Assembly: GCA_964467785.1 (NCBI GenBank)
Contig: CAYXVB010000002.1
Location: forward strand, 1 to 50,990
Source of the DNA: an uncultured Bacteriovoracaceae bacterium
Lineage (GTDB): Bacteria > Bdellovibrionota > UBA1018
Direction of reading: 5' to 3'
DNA length: 50,990 bases
The notes below the pieces were generated by a model. It was given only the letters and a program-made list of their open reading frames with translations, did not search any database and was not told the DNA's origin. Numbering within the stretch: the stretch's first letter is position 1; the number at the start of each line of letters is the position of its first letter. Shown here piece after piece: positions 1 to 14,348 of this stretch. The translations under genes were made by a program, and so were the position numbers.

Positions 1-1
1 A

Positions 2-1327
2 CGCGAACGCAGCGGACATGGCGAGGTGGAGGACAGACAGCCCGGCGACCTCGGGTGTGCGCAGCCTGCAGCACTGACCTCGAAGCGCAACAACAGCCAG
101 CCTGGGTTGAGGTGGAAGGCGGACGGGCAGGGCAGCCTCAGCCCCGACCAGTACGACCGCCCGGTCGAGTCCTTCTCGGGCGGTTGGAAGATGCGTATCG
201 CGCTGGCCCGCATCCTGGCGCTCAACCCTGACGTCCTGCTCATGGACGAACCGACCAACCATCTCGATCTCGAGAGCATCGTGTGGCTCGAGGAGTGGAT
301 CGTCCAGAGCTTCAAGGGCGCGCTCGTCATGACGAGCCATGACCGCGAGTTCATGAACCGCATCGTGACCCGCATCGTGGAGATCGCCAACAAGCAGATC
401 ACCGTCTACAGCGGCAACTACGAGTTCTACGTGCGCGAGCGCGAGATCCGCCGCGAGCAGCTGCTCGCCGCCCACCAGAAGCAGCAGGACATGCTCGCCA
501 AGGAGGAGGAGTTCATCGCCCGCTTCGCCGCGCGCGCCTCCCACGCCGCGCAGGTTCAGTCCCGCGTAAAAAAGCTCGAAAAGATCGACCGAATCGAGAT
601 CCCGGCCGAAGAGAAGACGATGAAGTTCGACTTCCCTGTTCCGCCTCGCAGCGGCAATGACGTGGTCAAGTTCGACGGCCTGGGCAAGGAGTACGCGCTC
701 GAAAACGGTAAGGTCAAACCCGTGTTCAGCGGAGTCAACGGCGTGGTCTCGCGCCTGGACCGCGTCGCGGTCGTCGGCGTCAACGGCGCCGGCAAGTCGA
801 CGTTGCTCAAGATCGCGACCGGCATGACCGACGCGACCTCCGGCAAATGCACCCTCGGCGCGAGCGTCCATCTCGGATACTTCAGCCAGAACTCGCTCGA
901 CGTCCTCAACCCGAACAAGACGATCTTCGAGGAGATCCACGACCGGATCCCCGACGCGACGATCGGCTATGTCCGCAACCTGCTGGGCGCGTTCAACTTC
1001 TCGGGCGACGACGTCGAAAAGCGAATCGGCGTCCTCTCCGGCGGCGAAAAGAGCCGTGTGGTGCTCGCCACCGTTCTCGCGCGCCCGGTGAACTTCCTGG
1101 TGCTCGACGAACCGACCAACCATCTCGATATCAAGTCGCGCGAAGTGCTCCTGAACGCGATCTTGAATTTCGAAGGCACCGTGATGATCGTGAGCCACGA
1201 TCGTCACTTCCTGCGTTCTATCGCCACCCGCGTGTTCGAAGTCGATCACGGCGAGATGCGCGTGTACCCGGGCAGCTACCAGTACTATCTGGATAGGAAG
1301 AAGGCGGAGACCGGCGCCAAGGCCTGA
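2..1327 (+). CDS. ABC-F family ATPase (two ABC cassettes), 5' end cut by window edge
   Basis: The frame is open to the left edge. The first cassette has signature and Walker B FSGGWKMRIALARIL...LLMDEPTNHLD, followed by a charged linker QKQQDMLAKEEEFIARF. The second cassette has Walker A GVNGAGKST, signature LSGGEKSRV and Walker B LVLDEPTNHLD. The first ~45 codons look atypical, so the frame near the edge is uncertain. Confidence 0.88.
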   Translation, partial: RERSGHGEVEDRQPGDLGCAQPAALTSKRNNSQPGLRWKADGQGSLSPDQYDRPVESFSGGWKMRIALARILALNPDVLLMDEPTNHLDLESIVWLEEWIVQSFKGALVMTSHDREFMNRIVTRIVEIANKQITVYSGNYEFYVREREIRREQLLAAHQKQQDMLAKEEEFIARFAARASHAAQVQSRVKKLEKIDRIEIPAEEKTMKFDFPVPPRSGNDVVKFDGLGKEYALENGKVKPVFSGVNGVVSRLDRVAVVGVNGAGKSTLLKIATGMTDATSGKCTLGASVHLGYFSQNSLDVLNPNKTIFEEIHDRIPDATIGYVRNLLGAFNFSGDDVEKRIGVLSGGEKSRVVLATVLARPVNFLVLDEPTNHLDIKSREVLLNAILNFEGTVMIVSHDRHFLRSIATRVFEVDHGEMRVYPGSYQYYLDRKKAETGAKA

Positions 1328-1374
1328 TCGCTGCGGACCGCGGGCAAGGAACACCCCTTGCTTCTACCCGCGTC

Positions 1375-1935
1375 ATGGGACTCAAAGGCCATCGCGCCAA
1401 CCGCCCGAGTTTCCGCTTCTTGCTCGGCCTGACCGCGCTGGCCGCGTTTTTACTCGCGCCTCTGCCCGAGCCGCATCTGCCGCCAAAGCAGCCGAACCTG
1501 GGAAACTCCGGTCGCGATTCCGGCCAAGCCACAGCCCCATCCGTTGGCCAGGGCGCGGGGCAAGCGGCCCGAGGCCCCGCTGCTGTCGCGCCCGCGGCCC
1601 GCTCTATCCTGGGGGATAAGAGCTATCGCTTTGAAGTCAACCTCGACCCGCGCGGCGGAGTCCGCGTGGACACCCTGGCGACGCTTCACCCCTTGCCGGA
1701 GACGATGACATTTCGGCTGTATCGCGACGACCAGACTTCCAAGAGCATCACCTTGCAGGCCATCAGCCCGCCGCCTGGCTCCACCAAGGTGTATCAGCAG
1801 CCGCACTATTCCGGGGAATACGATCCCGCCAACGGCCCCTATGTCGCTGCCGAAATCCAGTTTCCGATCGGTCCCGGGGACGTGAAGACTTATCGGGCCA
1901 AACTCGCTGAGCGGGCGTGCGAGGAACAGCGGTAG
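1375..1935 (+). CDS. hypothetical secreted protein
   Basis: 186-aa ORF with an N-terminal basic then hydrophobic segment (RFLLGLTALAAFLLAPL). The C-terminal half has ordinary, non-Arg-rich composition. No recognisable domain. Confidence 0.4.
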   Translation: MGLKGHRANRPSFRFLLGLTALAAFLLAPLPEPHLPPKQPNLGNSGRDSGQATAPSVGQGAGQAARGPAAVAPAARSILGDKSYRFEVNLDPRGGVRVDTLATLHPLPETMTFRLYRDDQTSKSITLQAISPPPGSTKVYQQPHYSGEYDPANGPYVAAEIQFPIGPGDVKTYRAKLAERACEEQR

Positions 1936-1944
1936 CCACAGCCC

Positions 1945-2355
1945 TCAAAACAGGCTGTCGTGCTTGAGGTAAGGCATGTACTCCTTATCCTCGCCGAGGA
2001 TGTGGTTTTGCAACCAGCCCTTGAGAAAGGTCATCAGCTCGCCGGAGACATCGACCTCCCCGCGCCCGAACTTATCGCGGAACTCGAGCACCTGGGCGGC
2101 GAGCCGTTCGTGCACTCTCTTGTGCGCCTCGAAGCCGGGAAAGTTGCCGGCCCTCATCGCTTCTTCCTCGTCGCGGAAGTGATACTTGGTGTAGTCGATC
2201 AGGCGATCGAGCAGCACGCCGACGAACATCCGCATCTCGCCCTGTGCGTCCTTGTTCTCATAAAGCTGGTTGATCAGGTGCACGAGCTCTTTGTGCTGGT
2301 AATCGATGTTGCTGTCGTTGACGGAGTACTCGTCTTTCCACTCGAAAAAGGCCAT
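1945..2355 (-). CDS. hemerythrin-like metal-binding protein (bacteriohemerythrin)
   Basis: The 136-aa protein starts FEWKDEYSVNDSNIDYQHKELV and has the spaced His/Glu ligand pattern (H..E, HF..EE, H...H, NHI...D) typical of bacteriohemerythrins. GGGGAG lies upstream of the ATG. Confidence 0.85.
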   Translation of the reverse strand: MAFFEWKDEYSVNDSNIDYQHKELVHLINQLYENKDAQGEMRMFVGVLLDRLIDYTKYHFRDEEEAMRAGNFPGFEAHKRVHERLAAQVLEFRDKFGRGEVDVSGELMTFLKGWLQNHILGEDKEYMPYLKHDSLF

Positions 2356-2461
2356 TTCTAGGCTCCCCTGTTGCGCTGCGGACGGAAATGTTTGGGCTAT
2401 GGACTGCGGCTGTGTCCTTCAAGCTTAAAGAATCCGCGGCGGAGATTCAACAGGGCTCGTC

Positions 2462-3313
2462 CTAAGGACGGAACCCGATGCTCTGTTTGACGGCGCGGTA
2501 TTCGGGATGAATCGATCCGTCCCGGCGTCGAATGACGAGCGCGGGCTCCTCGAAGCCATGATCCCGGATTTCGGGCTGGAGATGTTCGCTCAAGACCATC
2601 CCGAAAAGGCCCAGAAGCGGGAGCTCCCCCTCTTTGAGAACCACCGGACGCCAACGCAAGATCGTGAGCCCGGCGCTGCGGGCGCCTTCGATCACCCGTT
2701 GCAGCTGGTGAGGCGGATTGACCGGAAAAACACACGCGAAAAATCCGCCCTGCCCGAGGTGCCGAGCCGCGGTGCCGCAATAATCGGCCACCGTGCCACG
2801 CACTTCGAAGCGGCAAGCGATCTTTTGCGGATGATCCCCCAGCACTCCCGAGTCGAGCGGAAAATAAGGCGGACTGCCCAGAACGAGATCGAATTTTTCT
2901 TGGGGTTGAATCACACCAGGATCGCGAAAGTCCCCCTGCCGGATCTCATAACGGCTTTCGAGCCCATTATATCGAGCGGAGCGCCGGGCGAGCGCCACGC
3001 TCTGCTCCTGCGCCTCGACTGTCACGAAGCTAGCGAACGGCAGACGCCATGCCGCAGTCATGCCGACCGACCCGATGCCGCTGCCCAGATCGAGCACGCG
3101 GCGGACGGAGGGGGCATGGGACGACCCGTACCAGGCGGTAATGATGTCATCCGTGGAAAAACGGTGGCCGTCGCGGAGCTGGAAGATCTTGAAACGTCCG
3201 CTGAGCGCGTCGAGGGACTCTCCTTCGCCCGTCTGTCCGAGCGCGGGATCGCTTTCGCCCGGGACGCCCTCTCCGGGGACTGCCCAGTTCTTGAAGAAGC
3301 GGACCTCGCTCAA
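2462..3313 (-). CDS. SAM-dependent methyltransferase, TrmN6/YfiC-like (tRNA m6A37-type)
   Basis: Carries the FKIFQLRDGHRFSTDD motif, SAM motif I VLDLGSGIGSVG, and an N6-amino-methyltransferase motif IV variant LGSPPYF (NPPY-like). Overlaps the upstream gene by 4 nt. Confidence 0.7.
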   Translation of the reverse strand: MSEVRFFKNWAVPGEGVPGESDPALGQTGEGESLDALSGRFKIFQLRDGHRFSTDDIITAWYGSSHAPSVRRVLDLGSGIGSVGMTAAWRLPFASFVTVEAQEQSVALARRSARYNGLESRYEIRQGDFRDPGVIQPQEKFDLVLGSPPYFPLDSGVLGDHPQKIACRFEVRGTVADYCGTAARHLGQGGFFACVFPVNPPHQLQRVIEGARSAGLTILRWRPVVLKEGELPLLGLFGMVLSEHLQPEIRDHGFEEPALVIRRRDGSIHPEYRAVKQSIGFRP

Positions 3314-4398
3314 GTGGACGCCTCGCTGTTGCCGGCCTTCAGATAAGGCGTGCGATCCTGCACGGCGACCCTGATTTCCTGGAAAACGATCTTGATCGCA
3401 GTCGCGACTGGAATGGAGATGAGCATGCCCACAAGACCGTAATACTGGCCTCCGATCATGACCGCAAGCACCATGACGATGGGATGCAGATTGACCAGCT
3501 TGGCCACCACCACCGGGAATATCACGGCGGTGTCGATGACGTTGGCGACGACATGAACGCCCAGCACCGGCAGGAAAAGCTGTCGAAGCGGTGGATCCAA
3601 CCAGACCACCAGCAAGCTCGGAATCGCGCCAAGCACCGGTCCGATGTAAGGAATGATGTTGCCCAGCCCCGCGATCGCGCCCAGCACGAGCGCGTAGGGC
3701 TCGCCCACGGCCATCAGCCCGAGCGCGGTGAGCAGGCCTACAAGCGCCGCCTCGACGATCTTGGCCCGCAGGTAATCCGAGAGCGAGGCGGAGATCCGCG
3801 AGGTGACCATGAAAATCGTCTCAAAAAAGCGGTTGGGCACATGCTCGAAGATCTTGCGCCGAAGAATGCGACCGTCCTTCAGCAGCGCGAAGGTCAGCAG
3901 CGGCACCACGAGCAAATGAGTGAAGAACGCGCCCATGAATCCCGGAGCGTTGAGCAGGAACCACTGTCCGGTGGCCTTGCCCCAGCCGTCGAACTTGTCA
4001 GTGACCTGGATCGACTGCAGCGCGGGAAAGCGGCCTTTGAGCTCCGCCTCGAACTGCTGGAGCTGCGTGAGCGTGGACACGAAATAGCGGGGCGCCGAGA
4101 CCCGCAAACCTTCCCACTCGGACATCGCCGTGCGGGCGATCCAGACGGAGGTCAGCCCCATGAGCGCGAAGCCGCCGAGGAAAAGCAGCGTGATCGCCGA
4201 GCCGCGGGTAAAGCCGCGCCGCTCGAGGGCATCGGTCACCGGCGAGAGCATCAGAGCGAGCACGGCCGAGACCGCGGCGGGACTCGAGATCGAGGGCGTG
4301 AGCAGGATGAGCGACACGGCCCCCGCCAATACAAAGATCAGGCCGCAGAGGCGTAGGATGTCGATGCGAAGCTTACTGACGGCTTTCGAGCGCGGCAT
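3310..4398 (-). CDS. AI-2E family transporter (PerM/UPF0118-type permease)
   Basis: 362-aa polytopic membrane protein with the family-typical segment GLGNIIPYIGPVLGAIPSLLV and the FF..HLLVVPLLTFALL region. Confidence 0.8.
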   Translation of the reverse strand: MPRSKAVSKLRIDILRLCGLIFVLAGAVSLILLTPSISSPAAVSAVLALMLSPVTDALERRGFTRGSAITLLFLGGFALMGLTSVWIARTAMSEWEGLRVSAPRYFVSTLTQLQQFEAELKGRFPALQSIQVTDKFDGWGKATGQWFLLNAPGFMGAFFTHLLVVPLLTFALLKDGRILRRKIFEHVPNRFFETIFMVTSRISASLSDYLRAKIVEAALVGLLTALGLMAVGEPYALVLGAIAGLGNIIPYIGPVLGAIPSLLVVWLDPPLRQLFLPVLGVHVVANVIDTAVIFPVVVAKLVNLHPIVMVLAVMIGGQYYGLVGMLISIPVATAIKIVFQEIRVAVQDRTPYLKAGNSEAST

Positions 4399-4990
4399 GA
4401 TTCACCTGATCGGGGAGCCTGTGGATGGTGTCGAGAAGACGGCGCGATAGAACCCGCGAAAGCTGCAGCAGGATCTTTGCGCCCATGGCCGGTTGCCGAG
4501 AGAGGATCTCCATGAGATCCGCCTTGAAGAAACCGATGAGCACGGCCTTTTCGGTCGCGACGGCCGAGGCGCTTCGGATGTTGTCCTCTTCGAGCAACGC
4601 CATCTCGCCGAAGAAGCTGCCGGCCTCCAACCGAGTGACGGGGACCTCTCCGTCCTTGCCCTGCACGAAAATCCCGACCTGGCCGCGGACGATGACGTAG
4701 AGCCCGAAGCCGCTCTTCCCTTCGCGGAAGACCACTTCTTCTTTTTCGTACACCCGCTCGTAGGTCATGTTGGCGACGTACTGGAGCTCGCGCTCGCTCA
4801 AGGTGCTGAACAGGATGTTTTCCTTGAGGGCGGCGACGACAGCGTCGCTGACCTTGGATTTCTTCCGGAAAATGTCCGCCCAAAGGAAGTAGGAACGCGA
4901 GAGAATCGGCATGTCTTTAGGATCGACCCAAGTGCCCCCATACTTGAGGCGTCTTGCCCCGGGCTTCCAGATCAGGCCCCGTTCCCGCAC
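4373..4990 (-). CDS. cyclic nucleotide-binding domain protein
   Basis: cNMP-binding beta-barrel motifs VFREGKSGFGLYVIVRGQV and FFGEMALLEEDNIRSASAVA. The start is uncertain; an alternative ATG lies at 4912. Confidence 0.75.
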   Translation of the reverse strand: MRERGLIWKPGARRLKYGGTWVDPKDMPILSRSYFLWADIFRKKSKVSDAVVAALKENILFSTLSERELQYVANMTYERVYEKEEVVFREGKSGFGLYVIVRGQVGIFVQGKDGEVPVTRLEAGSFFGEMALLEEDNIRSASAVATEKAVLIGFFKADLMEILSRQPAMGAKILLQLSRVLSRRLLDTIHRLPDQVNHAALESRQ

Positions 4991-5000
4991 CGCGGTCGCG

Positions 5001-7043
5001 TCAAATCGATGACAGGATCGCGAATTGGCGATGGGCGCGCACGCGCCCCTCGGCCCGCTCCCGCTCCGACTCCGGCACGCCCAGCGGCAGCCGGGCCGTG
5101 CTCCGCTCCCAGCGCGCGAGCCAATCGCGCCCTAGCAACCGCGAAGCGAATGCGGAGCGTTCGGGATCAGTGAGTGCGAGAGTGGAATCCGCCTTGGGAC
5201 CGGTGCCCACGCCCTGCGCGACAAAAAAACCGGAGGCGAGCAAGGTCGCACGGACCGCCGTGGAGTTGGAGTAAGTGAACAGCTCCACAGCCGCTTGGCC
5301 GAAAATCCCACGCAACTTCTCGAAGCAATCCAGTGCCCAGAGGGGCGAATCCACTTTGGGCGAAAACGGATCGTAAAACACGAGCGCCGGTACCGGAGCA
5401 TGGGGTGCCTGTTCGAGAAAGTCGCCTTCCCTGAGCTCCCAGCGCAGTTTACCGCCCGCACCGCTCCACGCTCCGTCACGGAGCAACGCCTGTGGCGCTC
5501 CGTGATGCAGATGAGGAAAGCCGGGCGCATGGGCGAGCGCCAGCCGGAGCGCGTCGAGGTCCCGCTCAAAGCTCACCATTCGCAGCGGGCGCGCGAGCCT
5601 CCCCTCACGTGCCAGGGATTCCGCCTCACGAAGGGTCGCCATGGCGTTGGCCGCCATGCCCATGCCGACATCCCAAACGATCAACTCGATCCCCGCGTCC
5701 GCCGGCTGGGAAAGACGTTCCCGAAGCCCTGACTGCTCCACGTAAAGCCTGCGGGCCTCCTCGCTCGGCTCGATCACCGAATGCATGACCTCGCCCGAGT
5801 CGCGGTCGCGCACGCTCCACCCCCCGGACGCGAGCTCGGCCAGCTCGAACCGGCCCAGCTCGCGCTGGGGCTGCTTGCGTTTTTTGGCGCGAGGCGGACG
5901 GATCGGGTTTTCCGGATCCTCGAGCACGAGTCGCTCGCGCTCCTCGCGATAAAAGGCTGGGAAGCGGCCTTCGACGATGGCGGAGCGGATTCGCCGCATC
6001 AGCTCGTGGTAGAAGTGGATGTTGTGTCGCCCGATCAGGCTCCAGCCCAGGACCTCGCGAGCGGCCACGAGATGATGGAGGTAAGCGCGAGAGTACCGCG
6101 TGCAGGTATCGCACGTACACTCGGGATCCAGTGGCTCTTTCGAAAGCTTGTAGGTCCCGCGTCTGAGCTGGACGCGTCCCCGCGAGGTGTAGGCCGTGCC
6201 CTGCTGGGCCAGCGCCGTCGGCAGGATGCAGTCAAAAAGATCCACTCCGCGGCTCACGGCCTCGAGCAAATCGATCGGCGTACCCACGCCCATCAAATAG
6301 CGCGGCTTGTCCGTCGGCAAAAGCTCCGCGGTAAGCGCGGTGAAGTCCTCCCGCTGCGCGCGGGTCTCGCCCACCGCAAGACCGCCGATGGCGAAACCGT
6401 CGAACGGGAGCGACGTGATCGCTCGGGCGCTGGCTCGCCTTAGGTCCTCGAAGCAGGCTCCCTGCACGATGCCAAAGATCGATTGGCTCGACTCCTCCGT
6501 GCGCGTGGCCAAGGAGCGCTCGGCCCAACGATGGGTGCGATCCATCGCGCGGAGCGCGGTGGCGTGGTCGCAAGTCGACGGTACGCACTGGTCAAAGGCC
6601 ATCGCGATGTCGCTGCCGATCGAGCGCTGCACGGACAGGCTCCGCTCCGGTGTGAGACGCACCGGCGCGGCGTCCGGATGCGGACGAAAGGTCGCGCCCT
6701 CGTCGTCCACGGAGACTTGATGGTCGAGCGAAAAAACCTGGAAACCGCCCGAGTCCGTGAGCACCAAGCCGTCCCAGCGCATAAAGCGGTGAATGCCACC
6801 AAGCGCTTCGAGCGTTTCCGGTCCGGGCCGCAACATGAGGTGATACGTATTGGCGAGCAGGATCCGCGATCCCGACTCCGCGAGCCAGTCGGCGGTCTGG
6901 CCACGCACTGTGGCCTGCGTGCCCACGGGCATGAAAGCCGGAGTGAGCACCTCGCCCCGACGGGAATGGAGAACGCCGGCACGGGCGCGCGTCACCGAGC
7001 AGGTGGCCTGGAGCTCCAAAGTCACTCTTGGCTGCGAGACCAT
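5001..7043 (-). CDS. tgt: tRNA-guanine transglycosylase (queuine-type Tgt) fused to a C-terminal MnmC-type SAM methyltransferase-like domain
   Basis: The N-terminal ~385 aa carry TPAFMPVGT, LVLTDSGGFQVFSL, and the zinc site CTCDTCTRYSRAYLHHL. The C-terminal ~290 aa carry LIVWDVGMGMAANA and VFYDPFSPKVDSPLW...LFTYSNSTAVRATLLASGFFV, which resembles the MnmC methyltransferase domain (FLDGFAPAKNPxMW...TY..a..VRr.L..aGF). Confidence 0.85.
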   Translation of the reverse strand: MVSQPRVTLELQATCSVTRARAGVLHSRRGEVLTPAFMPVGTQATVRGQTADWLAESGSRILLANTYHLMLRPGPETLEALGGIHRFMRWDGLVLTDSGGFQVFSLDHQVSVDDEGATFRPHPDAAPVRLTPERSLSVQRSIGSDIAMAFDQCVPSTCDHATALRAMDRTHRWAERSLATRTEESSQSIFGIVQGACFEDLRRASARAITSLPFDGFAIGGLAVGETRAQREDFTALTAELLPTDKPRYLMGVGTPIDLLEAVSRGVDLFDCILPTALAQQGTAYTSRGRVQLRRGTYKLSKEPLDPECTCDTCTRYSRAYLHHLVAAREVLGWSLIGRHNIHFYHELMRRIRSAIVEGRFPAFYREERERLVLEDPENPIRPPRAKKRKQPQRELGRFELAELASGGWSVRDRDSGEVMHSVIEPSEEARRLYVEQSGLRERLSQPADAGIELIVWDVGMGMAANAMATLREAESLAREGRLARPLRMVSFERDLDALRLALAHAPGFPHLHHGAPQALLRDGAWSGAGGKLRWELREGDFLEQAPHAPVPALVFYDPFSPKVDSPLWALDCFEKLRGIFGQAAVELFTYSNSTAVRATLLASGFFVAQGVGTGPKADSTLALTDPERSAFASRLLGRDWLARWERSTARLPLGVPESERERAEGRVRAHRQFAILSSI

Positions 7044-7050
7044 CCGCCGG

Positions 7051-8157
7051 TCACTTCCTGGCCGGCGCGCTCGCCCGAGGCGAAGCGCCTATGCGGGTGA
7101 CGCCCACGATGCAGATTTCCCGCTTATTGGATCGCAGTTGCAAGGCTTTGACCCGGCTCATCCCCAGGGCGCGCACGCGCTCGATCCACTCCGGAATCTC
7201 GATCGCGAACTCGGGCTCATTGAGCTTGAACGTCAGGATCACTCCCTTGAGGGTGTCCTTCATTCGCCCGGCCAGGCGCTCCACTTGGTGCAGGGTCACG
7301 CTGGGAGCGACGTTCATGTCGAGCAAGAGCCAGTCGATCTTGGCAGGCAGGTCCTCGCGCCGGACAGCGGCGACCGGAGCGCGAAGGTGCTGAAAACTCG
7401 GATGAGCGACCACGCGCGGATCCATTTCGGCGGGATCGATGCCAATGACCTGGAGACCGCGTTGGAGCAGCGCGAAGCTCGCGCCCCCCGGGCTGCTGCC
7501 GATTTCGACTGCCGTGTCCCCCCGGTTGAGCGGAGCGCCGGAAGCGATCACTGCCTCTTCTAGCTTGAGATAGGCGCGCGAAGGGGCGCCCTTAGGGAGC
7601 TCGACCTGCGGATCTCCACCGGGATAGGGCGAATGTCCCGGACCCTGGACGTGGTAACCCAGCCACCACTCGCTCTCCTCGACGATCACAACGCTCAGGA
7701 CCGGGTCCCCCTCCCGGGCCAGCGCTTCTTCCTCGAAAAGTCCGGTGCCGGACCGGGCGGCTTCGCCTTCGATGGACTGGAGGGCCTGCTCGGCAAGCGC
7801 GCGTGGCTCGAATCCCGGCGGCTCCTCGCCCGGAACAAAACGGTCGCGTTCGAAAACATGGAGGCGAAACTTGCGCTCACCTAGCCCGACCGAGACGCGG
7901 AGCTTGGCGGCGGCTTCCAGGAGCTCGGGTGCGCCGGCGGCCTTGCCGGCTGAGAGCGCAAAGGCGCGCGCGAAGACGGATTTCAGGGCAAAATCAGGGG
8001 TGAAAAGTCGCTTTTCGTCCGCGTTCTTGAAGGTCACGAAACCGGGACGGGAGTAGGAGAACCGCAGCTCGGGCAGGTCCCGGGCGAATTCGTCTTTTAA
8101 AAGCTTTTCCGCCCCGGCCTGGCAGACGGTCATCAAAAACTTACTGCTATAGGTCAT
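7051..8157 (-). CDS. rlmM: RlmM-like 23S rRNA 2'-O-ribose methyltransferase (THUMP-like N-domain + FtsJ-type MTase)
   Basis: SRAYLKLEEA precedes the SAM motif AVEIGSSPGGASFALLQRG, with WLLLDMNVAP following. I place the start at ATG 8157 (MTYSSKF..., 368 aa) rather than the 405-aa track start, because the upstream part is Arg/Pro-rich. The gap to tgt is 7 nt. Confidence 0.65.
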   Translation of the reverse strand: MTYSSKFLMTVCQAGAEKLLKDEFARDLPELRFSYSRPGFVTFKNADEKRLFTPDFALKSVFARAFALSAGKAAGAPELLEAAAKLRVSVGLGERKFRLHVFERDRFVPGEEPPGFEPRALAEQALQSIEGEAARSGTGLFEEEALAREGDPVLSVVIVEESEWWLGYHVQGPGHSPYPGGDPQVELPKGAPSRAYLKLEEAVIASGAPLNRGDTAVEIGSSPGGASFALLQRGLQVIGIDPAEMDPRVVAHPSFQHLRAPVAAVRREDLPAKIDWLLLDMNVAPSVTLHQVERLAGRMKDTLKGVILTFKLNEPEFAIEIPEWIERVRALGMSRVKALQLRSNKREICIVGVTRIGASPRASAPARK

Positions 8158-8385
8158 GCACCGGACCCTATAGCACAGCTCCCCGCGCCTGTCTGGCTCC
8201 CATTGGAGACCCAGGCAAGGTCCAGGTCGTTGATCTGATTGGGATGTCGCCCGGGTCAGCCCGGACACAGTTGCACGCCCGATGAGGGTAAACTATCCTT
8301 AAATCAAGAACTCAGGAGCGCCGTTGTGCGTTTGTTAACCGAGCAGCCTCTGCTCGAGCTCCCGGGAACCCAGGAACTAGAATTT

Positions 8386-10722
8386 ATGAAGCAAAGATCC
8401 ATGATCTTTCATTGGACAGTCCGTATGCTCCCGTTGGCGCTTGCCGCGCTCACCGTCGGCTGCTCTGTCCGGATCACTTCGATGGATCTCCCCCCCGAAG
8501 TGCTCGCCAAACTCGATAGTTCCGGCAATCTTCCGATCTCCGTCGAAAGCCCTACCCCAACCACGAGCCCGTCGCCGACACCCAGCCCGACGCCCTCTCC
8601 CTCGCCTGAGCCTTCTCCGAGCCCGTCGCCATCTCCCAGTCCGGTGCCACCGGCCAATCACGCCCCCACCGTGTCAGCGGCGACCCCTTACTTTGTGCTG
8701 AATTCTTCTACCATCACAGTGACGATGAATGATGGCGCCGGCCCCGCATTCACCGCTAGCGACATCGACGCGGGCGACACGCTGACTCTCTCCTCCGTAA
8801 CCGGAGCCCAGTATGGCACCGTGAGCCGCACTGCCACGAGCTTCACTTACACTCCGAACGCCGGGGGCCGAGGCCGGGAAACGCTGACCCTGACCGTGAC
8901 TGACAGCCAAGGCGCCCAAGGCACCGGCACGATCCAGATCAACGTGATGACCGCCAAGACTTGGACCGGCGCCACGAGCAATACCTGGGACAGCACGACC
9001 GGCGCCAACTGGTGCGGCACCGTCAAGGCGGACTTTACCGGCTGCAATGGCGGCAGCGTGCCCGGGGCGTCGGATGTCGCGGTGATCGACGACACCTGCT
9101 CAGGCGCCAATTGCAGCCCGACCACGAACTACAACGTCAGCCTCACCAGCCTCGCGATCGCTGGCTCGACGCTCACGATGGGCGCGACACGAACCCTCAC
9201 CCTGACCGGGACCTTGACCCAGTCCGCGGGCACCTTCAATGGCGCCGACGGCGCGATCTTGGTGAATGGAGCGGTGACGATCTCGGGCGGCACCTTCAAG
9301 TCCACCTCCGGCACGCTCACTGTCCGAGACGCCTGGACGATCTCGGGCTCGCCGTCCTTTGACCACAATAACGGCACCCTGCAATTCCAGGCTTCTTGGG
9401 CGCAAAGCCGCACCATCACGCCCAGCACGGTCAGCTACAAGAACGTGAACTTCGTCGGCGCCGAGCAAACCTTCACAGTCTCGGGCACGATGGCGGTGGC
9501 GGGAAATTTCGCGATCAGCTCCAGCTGGGCCGGAATCGGACTCGACACCGGTACGATCAATGTGAGCGGAAATATCGCCAACTCCGGCTCCTACGGCGTC
9601 GGCGGAAACGGCACGATCGTCGCGGCCGGCAGCGGCACCATCAGCGGGGTCTCTTCCTCCAGCTTCCCGAATATCACCATCAACACGAGCGGCACCTATT
9701 CGCTCGCCGGAACGGTGAAGATCAACGGAAACTACACCTATACCGCTGGCACGCTTAACACCGCGGGCGCTTCCATCATCTTCGGCGCCCCCTGGGCGAG
9801 CACACGCACCATCACTCCCGGCAATCTCACTTACTCCAACGTCACCTTTGCGGGCAGCGCATCCACCTATAACCTGGGCGGCGCGACCTTGAACGTCCAG
9901 GATCTCACGTTGGCGGACGCCGGCGGCTCTTCCATCGGCTCGCTCAACAACGGAACGGTCAAGGTTTACGGCAACCTTACAGCGTCCGGAATCGGCCTGA
10001 TTGGAAGCGCGTCGATAGAAATGGTCGGGACCGGCACGATTACCGGCTCGAGCGGCGCTCCACTAGGCAAACTGGTGATCAATACGAGTGACACGATCTC
10101 GCTCAGCGGCACCATTGTGATCAACGGCAGCTATACCTGGCAGGCGGGTGCGATCAATGCCGGCACTTCGACCCTCAAGTTCGCCACCACTACGGGGTCC
10201 TCACAGAGCTTGACGCTCGGTCCGGCCAGCTACGCCACCATTGATTTCTCAGGGTACATCGCCACCCAGAATCTCGGGGGCGCAACAGTCAATGTCCAGA
10301 ACCTGATCCTGAGCGATGTCAACAGCAGCGGCTCGGGCGCAGTCAATAACGGAACGATCTTGGTTTCGGGCAACCTGACCGCCTCGTCCTACGGCAAAGC
10401 CGGGACTGTCGCGATCCAACTGACAGGTGGGTCGGCCGCCTCCATCAACCAGGCGTCGGCAAACAGCTGGATCCCGGCCTCTCTTTCGATCAACAAGACC
10501 GCGGGGACGATGGTATCGCTAAGTTCCGCCGTGACCCTCAATCGCGCGGGGCAGACGCTCAACCTGACCTCGGGAGGTCTCGACCTGGCCGGCAATGCCT
10601 TGAGTATCACGGGCACGCTCTCGCTGAACGGCAATACGCTGACCAAGACCGGCGGCACATTAACGGTCAACGGTACCGCACAGGGCACGGGCTCGCTCTT
10701 TGGCGGCACGGTCGATCCGTGA
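8386..10722 (+). CDS. large surface lipoprotein: Pro/Thr/Ser linker, cadherin/Ig-like domain, tandem ~132-aa Gly/Thr/Ser/Asn-rich (beta-helix-like) modules
   Basis: ATG 8386 gives MKQRSMIFHWTVRMLPLALAALTVGC, a signal peptide with lipobox LTVGC. A PT/PS linker follows. An Ig/cadherin-like block carries ASDIDAGDTLTL...FTYTPN...LTLTVTDSQGA. After that come repeated modules, each starting (S/T)RTITP..(V/L)(S/T)Y.NV.F.G. Confidence 0.75.
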   Translation: MKQRSMIFHWTVRMLPLALAALTVGCSVRITSMDLPPEVLAKLDSSGNLPISVESPTPTTSPSPTPSPTPSPSPEPSPSPSPSPSPVPPANHAPTVSAATPYFVLNSSTITVTMNDGAGPAFTASDIDAGDTLTLSSVTGAQYGTVSRTATSFTYTPNAGGRGRETLTLTVTDSQGAQGTGTIQINVMTAKTWTGATSNTWDSTTGANWCGTVKADFTGCNGGSVPGASDVAVIDDTCSGANCSPTTNYNVSLTSLAIAGSTLTMGATRTLTLTGTLTQSAGTFNGADGAILVNGAVTISGGTFKSTSGTLTVRDAWTISGSPSFDHNNGTLQFQASWAQSRTITPSTVSYKNVNFVGAEQTFTVSGTMAVAGNFAISSSWAGIGLDTGTINVSGNIANSGSYGVGGNGTIVAAGSGTISGVSSSSFPNITINTSGTYSLAGTVKINGNYTYTAGTLNTAGASIIFGAPWASTRTITPGNLTYSNVTFAGSASTYNLGGATLNVQDLTLADAGGSSIGSLNNGTVKVYGNLTASGIGLIGSASIEMVGTGTITGSSGAPLGKLVINTSDTISLSGTIVINGSYTWQAGAINAGTSTLKFATTTGSSQSLTLGPASYATIDFSGYIATQNLGGATVNVQNLILSDVNSSGSGAVNNGTILVSGNLTASSYGKAGTVAIQLTGGSAASINQASANSWIPASLSINKTAGTMVSLSSAVTLNRAGQTLNLTSGGLDLAGNALSITGTLSLNGNTLTKTGGTLTVNGTAQGTGSLFGGTVDP
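8548..8652 (+). repeat. intragenic low-complexity (Ser/Thr-Pro)n coding repeat
   Basis: Encodes SPTPTTSPSPTPSPTPSPSPEPSPSPSPSPSPVPP. The DNA is a run of degenerate CCN-(A/T)CN dicodons. Confidence 0.9.
9406..10719 (+). repeat. three tandem ~396-405 nt (about 132-135 aa) coding modules inside the lipoprotein gene
   Basis: Module starts SRTITPSTVSYKNVNFVG (about 9406), TRTITPGNLTYSNVTFAG (about 9802) and SQSLTLGPASYATIDFSG (about 10201). They share internal motifs (GTI.VSGN(L/I)..SG, IN(T/K)S...SL.G(T)V.ING.YT). A more degenerate copy lies upstream, around 9130-9400. Confidence 0.75.
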
Positions 10723-11928
10723 TCAGCCGACTTTTCGGGTGCCCGCGGGCGTGACTCCGGGAATGCCGGTCGGCCTTGCCGCGGCTCCCGGCTGGACTTG
10801 GCCCTGCGGGGGCAAGCCCACGGACTGGACTCCGACCGGAACCGGCTGGACTCCGGCGGCAGTGGCGTTCTTGGGCGCCCATTGGGCAAAGAGATTTTTG
10901 TCGTTGGCGAATTCCCAGGCGTCCTCGCCCTTGACCTCGCCAGCCTTGACCGCGTCGAGCAGAGTGCTGTCAAGGACCTGCATCCCCTCTTTCCGCGCCG
11001 TCTGCATGGTGCTTGGGATCTGAAAGGTCTTACCTTCGCGGATCAAGTTGGCCACGGCCGCGTTGTTGACCATGATCTCATGGAAGGCGATGCGGCGCTT
11101 GCGATCGGCGCTCGGGATCAGCTTTTGGTTGATCACGACCTTGAGCGTCTCGGAGAGGACGGTGCGGACCTGCGCCTGCTCCTCGGCCGGAAAGGTATTG
11201 ATGATGCGGTCGATCGTCTTGGACGCTGAATTGGTGTGCAGCGTGGAAAAGACGAGGTGCCCCGTCTCCGCGGCTTTGAGCGCGAGCGCGACGGTTTCCG
11301 CGTCACGCATCTCGCCGATCAGGATGACGTCAGGATCTTCGCGCAGGGCGGCCTTGAGGCCCGAGGAGAAGTCGGTGAAGTGCCCGCCCAGCGAGCGCTG
11401 ATTGACCATGCACATCTTGGATTCGTGCTGGAATTCGATCGGGTCCTCGAGAGTGAGGATATGGCCCGCGGTGGTCATATTGATGTGGTTGAGCATCGCC
11501 GCGAGCGTGGTCGACTTACCGGAGCCGGTCGGGCCGCAGACCAGCACGAGCCCGTTGGAATAGGAAGTCGCCGTCTCGCAGATCGGCGGGCACCTGAGCT
11601 CGGCCAACGTGGGCGGAGACTCCGCCAAGGCGCGCATGACGAGCGAGAGACCATGGCGTTGATTGAAGACGTTGGCGCGGAAGATCCCCACTCCCGGCGC
11701 GCGGAAGGCGAAGTCGATGCTCTTCTTTTCGAGAAGCTCCAACTTCTGGTCCTGAGTCATGACCTGATTGATCATGCTTTCGACATCCTGGGGCGAAAGC
11801 GGCGGCATCTCGATCTTGACCATGTCGCCGCGGACCCGGATCATGGGCACGGACTTGGCCGCGACATGAAGGTCGGAACCCTTTGCCTGCATCATCACCT
11901 GGAGGAACTGTACGATACTCGCACCCAT
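10723..11928 (-). CDS. pilT: type IV pilus retraction ATPase PilT with ~50-aa Pro/Gly/Val-rich C-terminal extension
   Basis: Contains GSDLHV, Walker A GPTGSGKSTTLAAM, HILTLEDPIEF, ALREDPDVILIGEMRD and GHLVFSTLHTNSA. The tail ...AAGVQPVPVGVQSVGLPPQGQVQPGAAARPTGIPG is additional to the PilT core. Confidence 0.92.
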   Translation of the reverse strand: MGASIVQFLQVMMQAKGSDLHVAAKSVPMIRVRGDMVKIEMPPLSPQDVESMINQVMTQDQKLELLEKKSIDFAFRAPGVGIFRANVFNQRHGLSLVMRALAESPPTLAELRCPPICETATSYSNGLVLVCGPTGSGKSTTLAAMLNHINMTTAGHILTLEDPIEFQHESKMCMVNQRSLGGHFTDFSSGLKAALREDPDVILIGEMRDAETVALALKAAETGHLVFSTLHTNSASKTIDRIINTFPAEEQAQVRTVLSETLKVVINQKLIPSADRKRRIAFHEIMVNNAAVANLIREGKTFQIPSTMQTARKEGMQVLDSTLLDAVKAGEVKGEDAWEFANDKNLFAQWAPKNATAAGVQPVPVGVQSVGLPPQGQVQPGAAARPTGIPGVTPAGTRKVG

Positions 11929-11993
11929 GCTTGAGACTGATCGGCAAAGGTGCTGCGTAGTTTAAGGGAAATCTTTACCGGAGGCAGGCCCCG

Positions 11994-12782
11994 TTAACGC
12001 CTCATCACCACCGAGGGCGAGGCCTGATCCACCGGATAGAGGACGATTTCCTGGATATTGACGTGCGCCGGACGACTGACGCTCCAAAGCACGGCTTCGG
12101 CGATATCTTCGGGAGTCAGGGGTTGCATCCCCGCATAAACTGCCTTAGCGCGCCCGGCGTCTCCGAGCCGCACTTCGCTGAACTCCGTTTCGACCATACC
12201 CGGGGCGATCTCGGTCACCCGGATCGGCGTGCCATTGAGGTCCAGACGCAAAGACTCCGAGAGCGAGCGCACCGCCCATTTGGTGGCGGCGTAAATGTTG
12301 CCCCTCGGATAGTTCCAGCGTCCGGCGACCGAGCCCAGGTTGACGATGTGTCCGCGGCCCGCGGCGAGCAAATGGGGCAGCATCAAACGAGTCATGTAGA
12401 GTAGGCCTTTGACGTTGGTGTCGATCATCTCGTCCCAATCATCCAGGCTTCCCTGCTGGATCGAAACGAGGCCCCGTGCAAGCCCGGCGTTATTGACGAG
12501 TACGCCGATGCGCCCGGCAAGACCCCGCTGGGACTCAAACCAGGCTTCGACCTCTTCGCGCCGGCTGACATCCAGGGCAAACGCGTGGATCTCGACGCCA
12601 TGGGCGCTTCGCAGCTCGTCGGCCAGCGCGTCGATCCGCTCCTTTCGGCGGGCGGTCAGTACGACCCCGTACCCCGCGCCTGCAAACGCGCGGGCGCAGG
12701 CGGCCCCGATACCGGCGCTCGCGCCAGTGATCAGGACCAGGGGCAAGGAAACGGCAGGACGAGAAAAGTTGGTCTTGGCCAT
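11994..12782 (-). CDS. SDR family NAD(P)-dependent oxidoreductase (YdfG-like)
   Basis: Cofactor motif TGASAGIGAA, NNAG motif, and catalytic Y..xK (YAATKWAV). Confidence 0.85.
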   Translation of the reverse strand: MAKTNFSRPAVSLPLVLITGASAGIGAACARAFAGAGYGVVLTARRKERIDALADELRSAHGVEIHAFALDVSRREEVEAWFESQRGLAGRIGVLVNNAGLARGLVSIQQGSLDDWDEMIDTNVKGLLYMTRLMLPHLLAAGRGHIVNLGSVAGRWNYPRGNIYAATKWAVRSLSESLRLDLNGTPIRVTEIAPGMVETEFSEVRLGDAGRAKAVYAGMQPLTPEDIAEAVLWSVSRPAHVNIQEIVLYPVDQASPSVVMRR

Positions 12783-12823
12783 GGCTCAGATGGATACCAT
12801 ATCGCGCAGTCCGAGGAGAACTG

Positions 12824-13552
12824 TCAGGTGGCAGCCCCGGGCAAAGAGCCGCCGCCGCCGCATACTCGCTCAAACTCCTCCTCCGGCTGCGCCTCGATTC
12901 GCATCCTCTCGCCCGTCGCCGGATGCGCGAACTCGATCGACTCGCCGAGGAGCATCAGACGATGCGCCCCAAAACGCTCGCGCAGCAATCGATTGTAGCG
13001 ACCGTCTCCATAGACCGTGTCCCCGAGGATCGGATGGGAGATCGAGCTCAGGTGCTTGCGCACTTGATGCCTCCGTCCCGTGTCCGTCGAGACCCGGACT
13101 AGCGCAATCCGGGAAGTCGCATAACGTCCGGTGGCGACTGGGATCTCGGCTTTGCAAAGGACCCGATAGTGACTCACGGCCGGGGCCAGATCCGCCTCGG
13201 AATCACATTGCTTGGACTGCAGGGAGGATCGCAACGCCTTATCCACCGTCCCCTGCTCCTCCGGCCAACCCCGTACCGCCGCGAGGTAAGTCTTGCGGAC
13301 CGCATGCTCACGGAACTGTCGCGCCAATCCGGAGGCGCTTTCGGAGCTCAAACCGAAAATAAGAACTCCCGAAGCCGAACGGTCCAGCCGATGGACCGGA
13401 TAAACCCATTGCCCGAGCTGGTCGCGCAGCTCGGTCATCGCCGAGCGGGTCTCGCCCGCCGCGATCCGCGATCGGTGAACGAGCAGGCCGCTCGGTTTAT
13501 GGATCGCGACCAGTTGCGAGTCCTCAAAAAGGATCGTGAGTTTCGTGCTCAT
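12824..13552 (-). CDS. RluA-family pseudouridine synthase (TruC-like size, no S4 domain)
   Basis: Contains VAIHKPSGLLVH, catalytic Asp motif HRLDRSASGVLIFG, and RHQVRKHL. Confidence 0.8.
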   Translation of the reverse strand: MSTKLTILFEDSQLVAIHKPSGLLVHRSRIAAGETRSAMTELRDQLGQWVYPVHRLDRSASGVLIFGLSSESASGLARQFREHAVRKTYLAAVRGWPEEQGTVDKALRSSLQSKQCDSEADLAPAVSHYRVLCKAEIPVATGRYATSRIALVRVSTDTGRRHQVRKHLSSISHPILGDTVYGDGRYNRLLRERFGAHRLMLLGESIEFAHPATGERMRIEAQPEEEFERVCGGGGSLPGAAT

Positions 13553-13593
13553 TTGGTTGTCAATTTCTCACTCCGGATACCGAATCGTAAATC

Positions 13594-14319: not shown

Positions 14320-14348
14320 CGCAAACGCAAAATGTCGCCGAAAAACCG

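What the first reader, a model, noticed from the sequence alone, without database searches (positions are those of the whole stretch)
5001..7043. Fusion of tRNA-guanine transglycosylase with an MnmC-type methyltransferase-like domain
**Seen.** One uninterrupted 680-aa ORF contains a complete Tgt core (catalytic TDSGGFQ, zinc motif CxCxxC...H) running to about residue 385. A Lys/Arg-rich linker (PPRAKKRKQPQ) follows. The remaining ~290 aa carry DVGMGMAANA and FYDPFSPKVDSPLW...TYSNSTAVRATLLASGF.

**Established.** Bacterial Tgt is about 370-390 aa and inserts preQ1 at wobble position 34. The MnmC methyltransferase domain (motif FLDGFAPxKNPxMW) completes mnm5(s2)U, also at position 34 but in different tRNAs.

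**Inference.** A single polypeptide may combine two wobble-base modification activities. Alternatively, the second domain may have been recruited for a new step, for example methylating a 7-deazaguanine intermediate. I do not recall this architecture being characterised.
Basis: partly seen in the sequence, partly recalled or inferred. Interest (0 to 1): 0.6.

Follow-up and report, generated by a model that had tools for sequence, protein, structure and literature searches.

The report
Second Tgt fused to aminomethyl methyltransferase
This is a real single gene: an extra, catalytically intact copy of the enzyme that inserts the queuosine precursor preQ1 into tRNA, fused to an MnmC2-like methyltransferase; it most likely makes an undescribed N-methylated deazaguanine in RNA, but nobody has tested this.

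Summary
The 680-aa ORF is real. It lies on the minus strand (5001-7043). It has a complete Tgt domain (residues 1-372), a basic linker and an MnmC2-type methyltransferase with a roughly 55-aa tail.

The fusion is widespread. It occurs in Bdellovibrionota, Verrucomicrobiota, Acidobacteriota, Myxococcota and others. One paper lists it in passing, databases name it only "Tgt", and this scan has met it before in at least eight other genomes.

New here:
- The fused Tgt is one monophyletic paralogue ("Tgt2").
- All 41 fusion-bearing genomes examined also carry a canonical Tgt, which lies directly next to queA in 6 of 18.
- Tgt2 keeps every catalytic, preQ1-pocket and zinc residue. It has lost two arginines that are universal in canonical Tgt (R286, R289) and gained three others.
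- The fusion coexists with complete MnmC in some relatives.
- It persists in an acidobacterial lineage where MnmE was not found in any of 31 genomes, so MnmC2's usual substrate should be missing there.

These points argue against two housekeeping activities simply joined together. The best reading (about 0.45) is that Tgt2 inserts preQ1 and the methyltransferase N-methylates its aminomethyl group. The target RNA is unknown and the function is untested.

The parts
5001..7043 (-). Whole gene: Tgt2-MnmC2-like fusion, 680 aa plus stop (TGA 5001-5003). ATG at 7043, 7 nt after the stop of the upstream gene.
   Evidence: homologues of the same length and architecture
5928..7043 (-). Tgt2 domain, residues 1-372: (beta/alpha)8 barrel plus zinc subdomain
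   Evidence: PF01702 E 1e-139; TIGR00430 449 bits; Foldseek against Z. mobilis TGT (1efz, 1q2r) gives TM-target 0.95-0.96, rmsd 1.3-1.4
6738..6758 (-). TDSGGFQ, holding D97, which matches Z. mobilis D102 (catalytic acid/base)
   Evidence: invariant in 120 fusion homologues
6366..6386 (-). GGLAVGE: the preQ1-type base pocket (Z. mobilis G229-E235, including L231, V233, E235). All seven residues are invariant in the fused clade.
6198..6236 (-). FDCILPTALAQQG: nucleophile D271 (Z. mobilis D280), followed by the remodelled helix. Canonical R286 is Ala and R289 is Gln.
   Evidence: K/R frequency at these two positions is 100% in 82 canonical Tgts and 2% and 9% in 139 fused ones.
6009..6119 (-). Zinc site: C309-x-C311-x-x-C314 ... 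H340
   Evidence: (invariant columns)
5850..5927 (-). Linker, residues 373-398, Lys/Arg/Pro-rich (PPRAKKRKQPQ at 5865-5897)
   Evidence: pLDDT drops to about 72 here; the consensus of homologues is also basic
5172..5849 (-). MnmC2-like class I SAM methyltransferase domain, residues 399-624
   Evidence: PF05430 and NF033855; PDB 3VYW by sequence, E 6.6e-6; the C-domain model (pLDDT 95, pTM 0.93) has MnmC2/MnmC structures as its nine best Foldseek hits, E 2e-15 to 2e-10
5643..5675 (-). WDVGMGMAANA: SAM-binding motif I (D458, G460, G462, N466 invariant)
5337..5378 (-). FYDPFSPKVDSPLW: counterpart of MnmC2's FLDGFAPxKNPxMW, the amine-methyltransferase motif IV (D558, F560, S561, W569 invariant)
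5004..5171 (-). C-terminal helical extension, residues 625-680 (LLGxxWLxRWxRS...HxQF). It is shared with stand-alone MnmC2-like proteins and absent from canonical MnmC2.

Best explanation
The gene encodes a two-step RNA base-modification enzyme built from paralogues of two housekeeping enzymes.

Shown:
- The N-terminal half is a second, catalytically intact bacterial-type tRNA-guanine transglycosylase ("Tgt2").
- Its base pocket is strictly of the preQ1 (7-aminomethyl-7-deazaguanine) type.
- Its RNA-facing basic residues are rewired: R286 and R289 are lost, and Arg is gained at Z. mobilis positions 187, 240 and 304.
- The C-terminal half is an intact MnmC2-type SAM methyltransferase. The characterised members of that family methylate the primary amine of a 5-aminomethyl group on the wobble base.

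Inferred:
- Tgt2 exchanges a guanine in an RNA for preQ1. The RNA is most likely a tRNA anticodon loop, possibly a subset or a context different from the canonical U33-G34-U35.
- The tethered methyltransferase then N-methylates the 7-aminomethyl group, giving 7-(methylaminomethyl)-7-deazaguanosine.
- This would divert that site from the QueA/QueG route to queuosine, which the canonical Tgt of the same genome serves.
For: 1. Both domains are intact.
- Tgt catalytic, pocket and zinc residues are all present and invariant in 120 homologues.
- SAM motif I and the D-P-F-S motif are invariant.
- The folds are confirmed.

2. Tgt2 is one clade, separate from canonical Tgts. SH-aLRT is 99 and the stem length 0.61. 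The canonical Tgts of the same genomes group by phylum elsewhere in the tree.

3. Every fusion-bearing genome examined also has a canonical Tgt of about 380-430 aa:
- 14 of 14 among relatives
- 18 of 18 across five or more phyla
- 9 of 9 in Acidobacteriota
- in the window's own genome, at C43
The canonical gene is directly adjacent to queA in 6 of 18 genomes. The fusion never is.

4. The fusion coexists with full-length MnmC in G026, G032, G033 and G034. In those genomes neither housekeeping role needs it.

5. It persists where MnmC2's substrate should not exist.
- G049 and G050 lack MnmE and MnmG.
- MnmE was found in 0 of 31 relatives of G049, yet 9-11 of them carry the fusion.

6. preQ1 supply is available: QueF in 16 of 18 and QueA in 18 of 18 fusion genomes. 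The own genome has QueC, QueF and QueA.

7. A split form exists with overlapping adjacent genes in a Myxococcales genome (L032). This is the pattern expected of functional partners.

8. Chemical precedent: N-methyl-preQ1 exists in phage DNA, made there by an unrelated enzyme, DpdM (PMC10516641).
Against: - There is no biochemical or nucleoside evidence. No paper in the library reports N-methyl-preQ1 in RNA.
- Stand-alone MnmC2-like paralogues (39-41% identical, with the same C-terminal tail) occur in genomes without Tgt2 (G001, G004). The subfamily's substrate is therefore not tied exclusively to Tgt2.
- Unfused Tgt2 occurs in G005, G019, G028, G030 and G038. In G030 the only PF05430 protein is a full MnmC. 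Tgt2 can evidently work without a dedicated methyltransferase.
- No conserved gene neighbourhood or preQ1 riboswitch links the gene to the 7-deazaguanine pathway.
- Absence of MnmE/MnmG rests on MAGs whose completeness the tool did not report.
- The geometry between the two active sites could not be measured.
Confidence: 0.45

Rival explanations
1. Simple joining of two housekeeping wobble enzymes. The Tgt half inserts preQ1 at G34 of GUN tRNAs for queuosine. The methyltransferase half is an ordinary MnmC2 that converts nm5s2U34 to mnm5s2U34 in Glu/Lys/Gln tRNAs. The fusion only co-localises two anticodon-loop enzymes.
For: - Both halves hit the respective families.
- In 13 of 18 fusion genomes from other phyla the fused domain is the only PF05430 domain.
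- MnmG is present in 15 of 18 fusion genomes and in the own genome.
- Both enzyme families act on loops with U33-N34-U35 (general knowledge).
- The literature lists the fusion among MnmC2 fusions.
Against: - A canonical Tgt is always present as well, and it is the copy linked to queA.
- Tgt2 is a separate clade that has lost R286 and R289.
- The fusion coexists with complete MnmC.
- It persists in a lineage without MnmE/MnmG.
- The domain scores 62 bits against the MnmC2 equivalog cut-off of 136.
- It differs from canonical MnmC2 at several signature motifs and carries an extra tail.
Confidence: 0.1
2. Tgt2 and the methyltransferase cooperate, but on different chemistry or in a different order from the best reading. 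Three variants:
- The methyltransferase methylates free preQ1 and Tgt2 then inserts the methylated base.
- Tgt2 inserts another 7-substituted deazaguanine.
- The methyltransferase methylates a different amine near the exchanged base, possibly in rRNA or another non-tRNA RNA.
For: - From my own knowledge, E. coli Tgt tolerates N-substituted preQ1 analogues (the basis of RNA-TAG labelling; related papers were listed but not read).
- The rewired basic surface of Tgt2 points to a changed RNA substrate.
- In this window the gene follows an RlmM-like rRNA/tRNA 2'-O-methyltransferase by 7 nt.
- The next-best structural neighbour after MnmC2 is an rRNA m4(2)C synthase (8VYD).
Against: - The preQ1 pocket GGLAVGE, D156 and C158 are invariant, so a different base is not indicated.
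- The RlmM-like neighbour is not conserved beside the fusion in 28 other loci.
Confidence: 0.3
3. A DNA-modifying enzyme of the DpdA type: a 7-deazaguanine is inserted into DNA and then methylated, as in phage mdPreQ1 systems.
For: N-methyl-preQ1 is so far known only in DNA (PMC10516641).
Against: - The Tgt half scores as a bacterial tRNA Tgt equivalog: 449 bits, 46% identical to Z. mobilis TGT, TM 0.96.
- It gives no DpdA hit.
- No dpd, restriction or phage genes are nearby.
- The gene is chromosomal, single-copy and spread across phyla without a conserved neighbourhood.
Confidence: 0.04
4. Artefact: two adjacent genes joined by a sequencing or assembly error.
For: Reads could not be inspected. 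A genuinely split form exists in one Myxococcales genome.
Against: - An independent assembly gives the same 680-aa protein.
- More than 120 clusters and more than 40 genomes have the uninterrupted fusion.
- The linker is modelled with confidence.
Confidence: 0.01

Closest known systems
Bacterial tRNA-guanine(34) transglycosylase Tgt (Z. mobilis / E. coli; PDB 1Q2R, 1EFZ; TIGR00430)
   Same: - Same fold (TM 0.96).
- 46-52% identity.
- Same catalytic Asp pair, preQ1 pocket, zinc site and dimer-interface residues.
- Scores above the equivalog cut-off.
   Different: - It is a separate monophyletic paralogue that always sits beside a canonical Tgt.
- It is never next to queA.
- It has lost R286 and R289, which are K/R in 100% of 82 canonical sequences, and gained Arg at positions 187, 240 and 304.
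- It carries a C-terminal methyltransferase.
MnmC2, the nm5s2U34 methyltransferase (A. aeolicus DUF752, PDB 3VYW; N-terminal domain of E. coli MnmC, PDB 3PS9/3AWI/2QY6)
   Same: - Best structural and sequence neighbour of residues 399-624.
- Same SAM motif I and the same D-x-F-(A/S)-P motif for methylating a primary aminomethyl amine on a wobble base.
   Different: - About 20% identity, and below NCBIfam's MnmC2 cut-off (62 bits against 136).
- Motif variants: GEVMHS, WDVGLGAAxNA, GDF, GTGPKxETT.
- An extra tail of about 55 aa.
- Fused to Tgt2 rather than to the MnmC1 oxidase.
- The family persists where MnmE/MnmG were not found.
TGT-MnmC2 fusion proteins listed by Jaroch et al., 'Alternate routes to mnm5s2U synthesis in Gram-positive bacteria' (bioRxiv 10.1101/2023.12.21.572861)
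   Same: The same architecture (COG0343/PF01702 plus the MnmC2 domain of COG4121), noted as one of four other MnmC2 fusion types.
   Different: The paper only lists the architecture. It gives no function, phylogeny or paralogy analysis.
DpdM, the dPreQ1 N-methyltransferase of phages (DUF3109; PMC10516641)
   Same: It makes 7-(methylamino)methyl-7-deazaguanine, the product proposed here, after a Tgt-family transglycosylase (DpdA) has inserted preQ1.
   Different: It has an unrelated metal-binding fold, acts on DNA, is phage-encoded and is not fused to the transglycosylase. This is an analogy of function only.
Bifunctional MnmC (MnmC1 oxidase + MnmC2 methyltransferase)
   Same: A fusion of two enzymes that act consecutively on the same wobble-base side chain, ending with the MnmC2-type methylation.
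   Different: The partner here is a base-exchange enzyme rather than an FAD oxidase, and the domain order is reversed: the methyltransferase is C-terminal.

Membership tests
Bacterial Tgt (EC 2.4.2.29, TIGR00430) | TIM-barrel plus zinc-subdomain fold | tested here: met
   Foldseek against 1efz/1q2r gives TM-target 0.95-0.96, rmsd 1.3-1.4
Bacterial Tgt (EC 2.4.2.29, TIGR00430) | Catalytic Asp102 and Asp280; zinc ligands C318, C320, C323, H349 | tested here: met
   D97, D271, C309, C311, C314 and H340 align to these positions and are invariant in 120 homologues
Bacterial Tgt (EC 2.4.2.29, TIGR00430) | preQ1-type pocket (D156, Q203, G230, L231, V233, E235, Y258, M260) | tested here: met
   All present; GGLAVGE is invariant
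Bacterial Tgt (EC 2.4.2.29, TIGR00430) | Curated equivalog score | tested here: met
   449 bits against a cut-off of 306.75
Bacterial Tgt (EC 2.4.2.29, TIGR00430) | Universally conserved Arg286 and Arg289 after the nucleophile (helix alphaB, next to the ribose-34/phosphate-35 pocket according to PMC5395182) | tested here: not met
   Ala277 and Gln280 in this protein. K/R at these positions is 100% in 82 canonical sequences and 2% and 9% in 139 fused ones. Their exact RNA contacts are recalled from memory, not verified.
Bacterial Tgt (EC 2.4.2.29, TIGR00430) | Being the genome's queuosine-pathway Tgt (orthology) | tested here: not met
   A separate clade. A canonical Tgt is present in all 41 fusion genomes examined and is the copy adjacent to queA.
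Bacterial Tgt (EC 2.4.2.29, TIGR00430) | Exchange of G34 for preQ1 in tRNA Asp/Asn/His/Tyr | not testable with these tools
   Needs an enzyme assay
MnmC2 (NF033855 / PF05430) | MnmC2-type class I methyltransferase fold | tested here: met
   The nine best PDB hits are MnmC2/MnmC, E 2.4e-15 to 1.9e-10
MnmC2 (NF033855 / PF05430) | Family HMM thresholds | tested here: inconclusive
   Pfam PF05430 38.3 bits is above the gathering score of 22. NCBIfam MnmC2 62.4 bits is below the cut-off of 136.
MnmC2 (NF033855 / PF05430) | SAM motif I and the D-x-F-(A/S)-P amine-methylation motif | tested here: met
   D458-x-G-x-G and D558-P-F-S-P are invariant
MnmC2 (NF033855 / PF05430) | Works downstream of MnmE/MnmG, which supply the nm5(s2)U34 substrate | tested here: not met
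   The fusion is present in G049 and G050 without MnmE/MnmG. MnmE was found in 0 of 31 relatives while 9-11 of them carry the fusion. The own genome does have MnmG.
MnmC2 (NF033855 / PF05430) | Methylation of nm5s2U34 to mnm5s2U34 | not testable with these tools
   Needs an enzyme assay
DpdA/DpdM DNA 7-deazaguanine systems | DpdA-type transglycosylase, DUF3109 methyltransferase, dpd/phage context | tested here: not met
   Only the TGT and Methyltransf_30 families are hit. The neighbours are housekeeping genes.

The most novel reading that the evidence does not exclude
A dedicated second transglycosylase plus a tethered MnmC2-like methyltransferase installs a nucleoside not yet described in RNA, 7-(methylaminomethyl)-7-deazaguanosine. 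It would do so at a site or on a set of RNAs that differs from the canonical queuosine sites, creating a branch of the 7-deazaguanine pathway parallel to queuosine in several soil and predatory bacterial phyla.
Probability: 0.4. Interest if true: 0.75.

Novelty: new variant of a known kind. Interest (0 to 1): 0.58.

Why it matters
Queuosine biosynthesis is regarded as fully mapped in bacteria: one Tgt, then QueA and QueG/H. If the best reading holds, there is a widespread second Tgt with its own fused amine methyltransferase. That would add a new branch and probably a new RNA nucleoside. It would also show that MnmC2-type enzymes are not restricted to xnm5U.

The gene is currently annotated simply as "Tgt". 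Comparative-genomic inferences about queuosine capacity therefore miscount it.

The enzyme is easy to test, because it is soluble and built from well-studied folds. A Tgt with altered RNA recognition and a built-in methyltransferase could also be useful for RNA-labelling methods based on Tgt.

Tried and rejected
- Gene neighbourhood. None of the window's neighbours (RlmM-like methyltransferase, cNMP-binding protein, AI-2E permease, Ig-repeat protein, PilT) recurs next to the fusion in 18 loci from other phyla or 10 loci from the same order. The one exception is a HemK-like methyltransferase in G020. Context therefore gives no functional clue.
- Riboswitches. There is no Rfam hit, preQ1 riboswitch included, in 10 fusion loci or in window 1-15000.
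- Promoter and terminator scan of 2300-8600: nothing above chance.
- Role of R286 and R289. Three literature searches and two papers gave only that R286 lies in helix alphaB beside the ribose-34/phosphate-35 pocket. The detailed RNA contacts remain from memory.
- Tree of the methyltransferase domain using metagenomic "stand-alone" representatives. Fused and stand-alone labels intermix (28 changes). This is probably because many short metagenomic proteins are fragments of fusions. Only a 38-row stand-alone clade containing the own-genome paralogue is solid, so no origin scenario was drawn.
- Inter-domain geometry. Only the pTM of 0.74 is known.
- Names of cultured carriers. The cluster look-up gave no organism names beyond MAG labels.
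Full report
**Observation**

Window 5001-7043 holds one uninterrupted 680-aa ORF, but on the minus strand. The quoted motifs are all present at residues 96-102, 309-314 with H340, 383-393, 458-467, 556-569 and 590-606.

Domain scores:
- Pfam gives TGT (PF01702, E 1e-139, residues 19-368) and Methyltransf_30 (PF05430, 38.3 bits against a gathering score of 22).
- NCBIfam gives the Tgt equivalog TIGR00430 at 449 bits (cut-off 306.75).
- NCBIfam gives the MnmC2 domain model NF033855 over 6-206 of 209 positions at E 5e-17, but only 62 bits against a cut-off of 136.

The start ATG (7043) lies 7 nt after the stop of an RlmM-like methyltransferase gene. The stop (5001-5003) lies 10 nt before a cNMP-binding protein gene.

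**Not an artefact**

- An independent Logan assembly encodes a 99% identical 680-aa protein.
- The 120 best database clusters (53-61% identity, 650-730 aa) all carry both Pfam domains.
- AlphaFold2 with that alignment gives mean pLDDT 94 and pTM 0.74.

**Folds**

- The full model superposes on Z. mobilis TGT with TM 0.95-0.96 and rmsd 1.3-1.4 Å.
- The C-terminal 286 residues were modelled alone (pLDDT 95, pTM 0.93). Their nine best PDB matches are A. aeolicus MnmC2 (3VYW) and the MnmC methyltransferase domains of E. coli and Y. pestis, at E 2.4e-15 to 1.9e-10.

**What is already known**

Jaroch et al. (bioRxiv 10.1101/2023.12.21.572861) list fusions of TGT (COG0343/PF01702) with MnmC2 among four other MnmC2 fusion types, without further analysis. 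No paper in the library reports N-methyl-preQ1 in RNA or a cellular MnmC2-type preQ1 methyltransferase. 7-(Methylamino)methyl-7-deazaguanine is known in phage DNA, made by DpdM, which has an unrelated DUF3109 fold (PMC10516641).

This scan has met the same fusion on other DNA at least eight times. One earlier follow-up (e1-5040161) reached essentially the reading I reach here. I re-tested its claims independently.

**The Tgt half is a paralogue, not the housekeeping enzyme**

- The window's own genome (3.76 Mb, 92% complete) has a second, canonical Tgt of 381 aa on contig C43. It scores 509 bits on TIGR00430 and is 52% identical to the fused domain.
- Among 40 relatives, a canonical Tgt was found in 39. 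The fusion is present in about 14 genomes including the window's own, and each of those also has the canonical gene.
- A scan of GTDB representative genomes found the full-length fusion in Bdellovibrionota, Verrucomicrobiota, Acidobacteriota, Myxococcota, Riflebacteria and some Pseudomonadota MAGs.
- All 18 of those genomes also have a canonical Tgt of 373-424 aa.
- In 6 of the 18 the canonical tgt is directly adjacent to queA. The fusion never is.
- In a maximum-likelihood tree of 102 Tgt sequences, the 20 fused or split Tgt2 sequences form one clade (SH-aLRT 99, stem 0.61). The canonical Tgts of the same genomes cluster by phylum elsewhere.

**What changed in Tgt2**

I compared 139 fused with 82 canonical sequences, using Z. 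mobilis numbering.

Retained: D102, D156, Q203, G229-E235 (GGLAVGE, invariant), Y258, M260, D280 and the zinc ligands.

Changed:

| Position | Canonical | Fused |
|---|---|---|
| R286 | K/R 100% | Q/A/S |
| R289 | R 100% | Q (88%) |
| 187 | K/R ≤7% | R ≥96% |
| 240 | K/R ≤7% | R ≥96% |
| 304 | K/R ≤7% | R ≥96% |

Further clade-specific changes are E157Q, H127Y, Y161S and D310S/A.

R286 lies in helix alphaB next to the ribose-34/phosphate-35 pocket (PMC5395182). Its detailed RNA contacts I recall only from memory. The pattern is that of an active transglycosylase with an unchanged preQ1 pocket and a remodelled RNA-binding surface.

**The methyltransferase half is not an ordinary MnmC2**

- It shares MnmC2's SAM motif I and the D-x-F-(A/S)-P motif.
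- It differs from canonical MnmC2 at several signatures (GEVMHS, WDVGLGAAxNA, GDF, GTGPKxETT).
- It carries a helical tail of about 55 aa ending in HPQF.
- The same features mark a stand-alone subfamily of about 280 aa. One member sits in the own genome (C146, 273 aa, 39% identical, 83 bits on NF033855).

Three comparative facts argue against nm5s2U as the substrate of the fused domain:

1. In the same order, G026, G032, G033 and G034 have a full-length MnmC (PF05430 scores 104-119 bits in 641-685-aa frames) in addition to the fusion.
2. The acidobacterial fusion carriers G049 and G050 have neither MnmE nor MnmG. Their only GIDA-family hits are TrmFO-sized frames of about 456 aa.
3. Among G049 and its 30 relatives, MnmE was found in 0 of 31 genomes. 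Nine to eleven of them carry the fusion, each alongside a canonical Tgt.

Caveat: these are MAGs whose completeness the tool did not report. A consistent 0 of 31 is nevertheless unlikely to be caused by assembly gaps.

**Pathway context**

- The own genome encodes QueC, QueF, QueA and MnmG, and no MnmC1.
- QueF is present over the cut-off in 16 of 18 fusion genomes and QueA in 18 of 18.
- preQ1, the substrate that the Tgt2 pocket predicts, is therefore available.

**Variants**

- A Myxococcales genome has the two halves as overlapping adjacent genes (L032: 5923-7125 and 7125-7970).
- Five relatives (G005, G019, G028, G030, G038) have an unfused Tgt2 with the same PxxxAQ(R/Q)G motif and no methyltransferase gene beside it.
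- G001 and G004 have the stand-alone MnmC2-like protein without Tgt2.

These cases weaken a strict one-to-one coupling and are the main internal evidence against my preferred reading.

**Mechanism**

Shown: an intact preQ1-type transglycosylase paralogue is fused to an intact MnmC2-type amine methyltransferase. The pair is maintained independently of both housekeeping pathways.

Inferred (confidence about 0.45): Tgt2 replaces a guanine in an RNA by preQ1, and the tethered domain N-methylates the 7-aminomethyl group. That group is the structural analogue of the 5-aminomethyl group that MnmC2 methylates at the same wobble position.

Unknown: which RNA and which position are targeted, and whether methylation precedes or follows insertion.

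Rivals and their confidences:
- Same partnership but other chemistry or order: 0.3.
- Simple joining of two housekeeping activities: 0.1.
- DNA modification: 0.04.
- Artefact: 0.01.

**Things that gave nothing**

Neighbourhood conservation, riboswitch scans and the promoter/terminator scan were all uninformative. The methyltransferase-domain tree that used metagenomic short proteins is confounded by fragments. The geometry between the active sites could not be measured because the coordinates are not exposed.

**Verdict**

The architecture is already catalogued, so it is not new as a domain combination, and the scan has seen it repeatedly.

What is of interest is the case that it is a distinct, widespread, uncharacterised branch of 7-deazaguanine RNA modification, currently mis-annotated as plain Tgt. 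That case rests on several independent comparative tests but not on any experiment.

Interest 0.58; novelty: new variant of a known kind.

Noticed in passing
window 7051-8268 (-): A 405-aa FtsJ-type methyltransferase sits 7 nt upstream of the fusion. It resembles RlmM (23S rRNA C2498 2'-O-methyltransferase) only in its C-terminal half (72.8 bits against a cut-off of 176) and has an unassigned N-terminal region of about 180 aa. It is not found next to the fusion in 28 other loci.
   Followed up: partly
window 2462-3313 (-); L137:2391-3329 (-): A HemK/PrmC/TrmN6-like methyltransferase, below all NCBIfam cut-offs, lies three genes downstream of the fusion. In relative G020 its 61%-identical homologue lies directly downstream of the fusion. 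The linkage may be ancestral, with the cNMP-binding and AI-2E permease genes inserted between them in this window.
   Followed up: partly
own genome G000:C146 (L003:1339-2160, -): A stand-alone 273-aa MnmC2-like paralogue, 39% identical to the fused domain. It has the same motif variants and the same C-terminal tail ending in HPQF, and scores below the MnmC2 equivalog cut-off (83 bits against 136). It belongs to a clade of at least 38 representative clusters of unknown function. It also occurs in relatives without Tgt2.
   Followed up: partly
L118:1495-2688, L119:1507-2631, L120:107-1366, L121:1-1236, L122:1417-2643: Unfused Tgt2-type genes in five relatives (54-63% identical to the fused Tgt domain, with the same PxxxAQ(R/Q)G motif). 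No methyltransferase gene lies within the flanking sequence fetched.
   Followed up: partly
L032:5923-7125 and 7125-7970 (+): In a Myxococcales MAG the Tgt2 and MnmC2-like halves are separate genes that overlap at their junction. Either this is a natural split form or a frameshift in that assembly.
   Followed up: no
genomes G049, G059-G088 (Acidobacteriota relatives of L022): MnmE was not found in any of 31 genomes. G049 and G050 also lack MnmG. This suggests that a whole acidobacterial lineage lacks the xnm5U34 wobble-uridine pathway.
   Followed up: partly
model m426b6e59053e (residues 395-680): After MnmC2/MnmC, the next structural neighbour is the archaeal rRNA N4,N4-dimethylcytidine synthase (PDB 8VYD, E 2e-8). 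This is another methyltransferase acting on the exocyclic amine of an RNA base.
   Followed up: no
window 4373-4990 (-) and 3310-4398 (-): A cNMP-binding protein and an AI-2E family permease follow the fusion, separated by gaps of about 10 nt or by overlaps. This is an odd mix within what looks like one minus-strand operon of RNA-modification genes.
   Followed up: no
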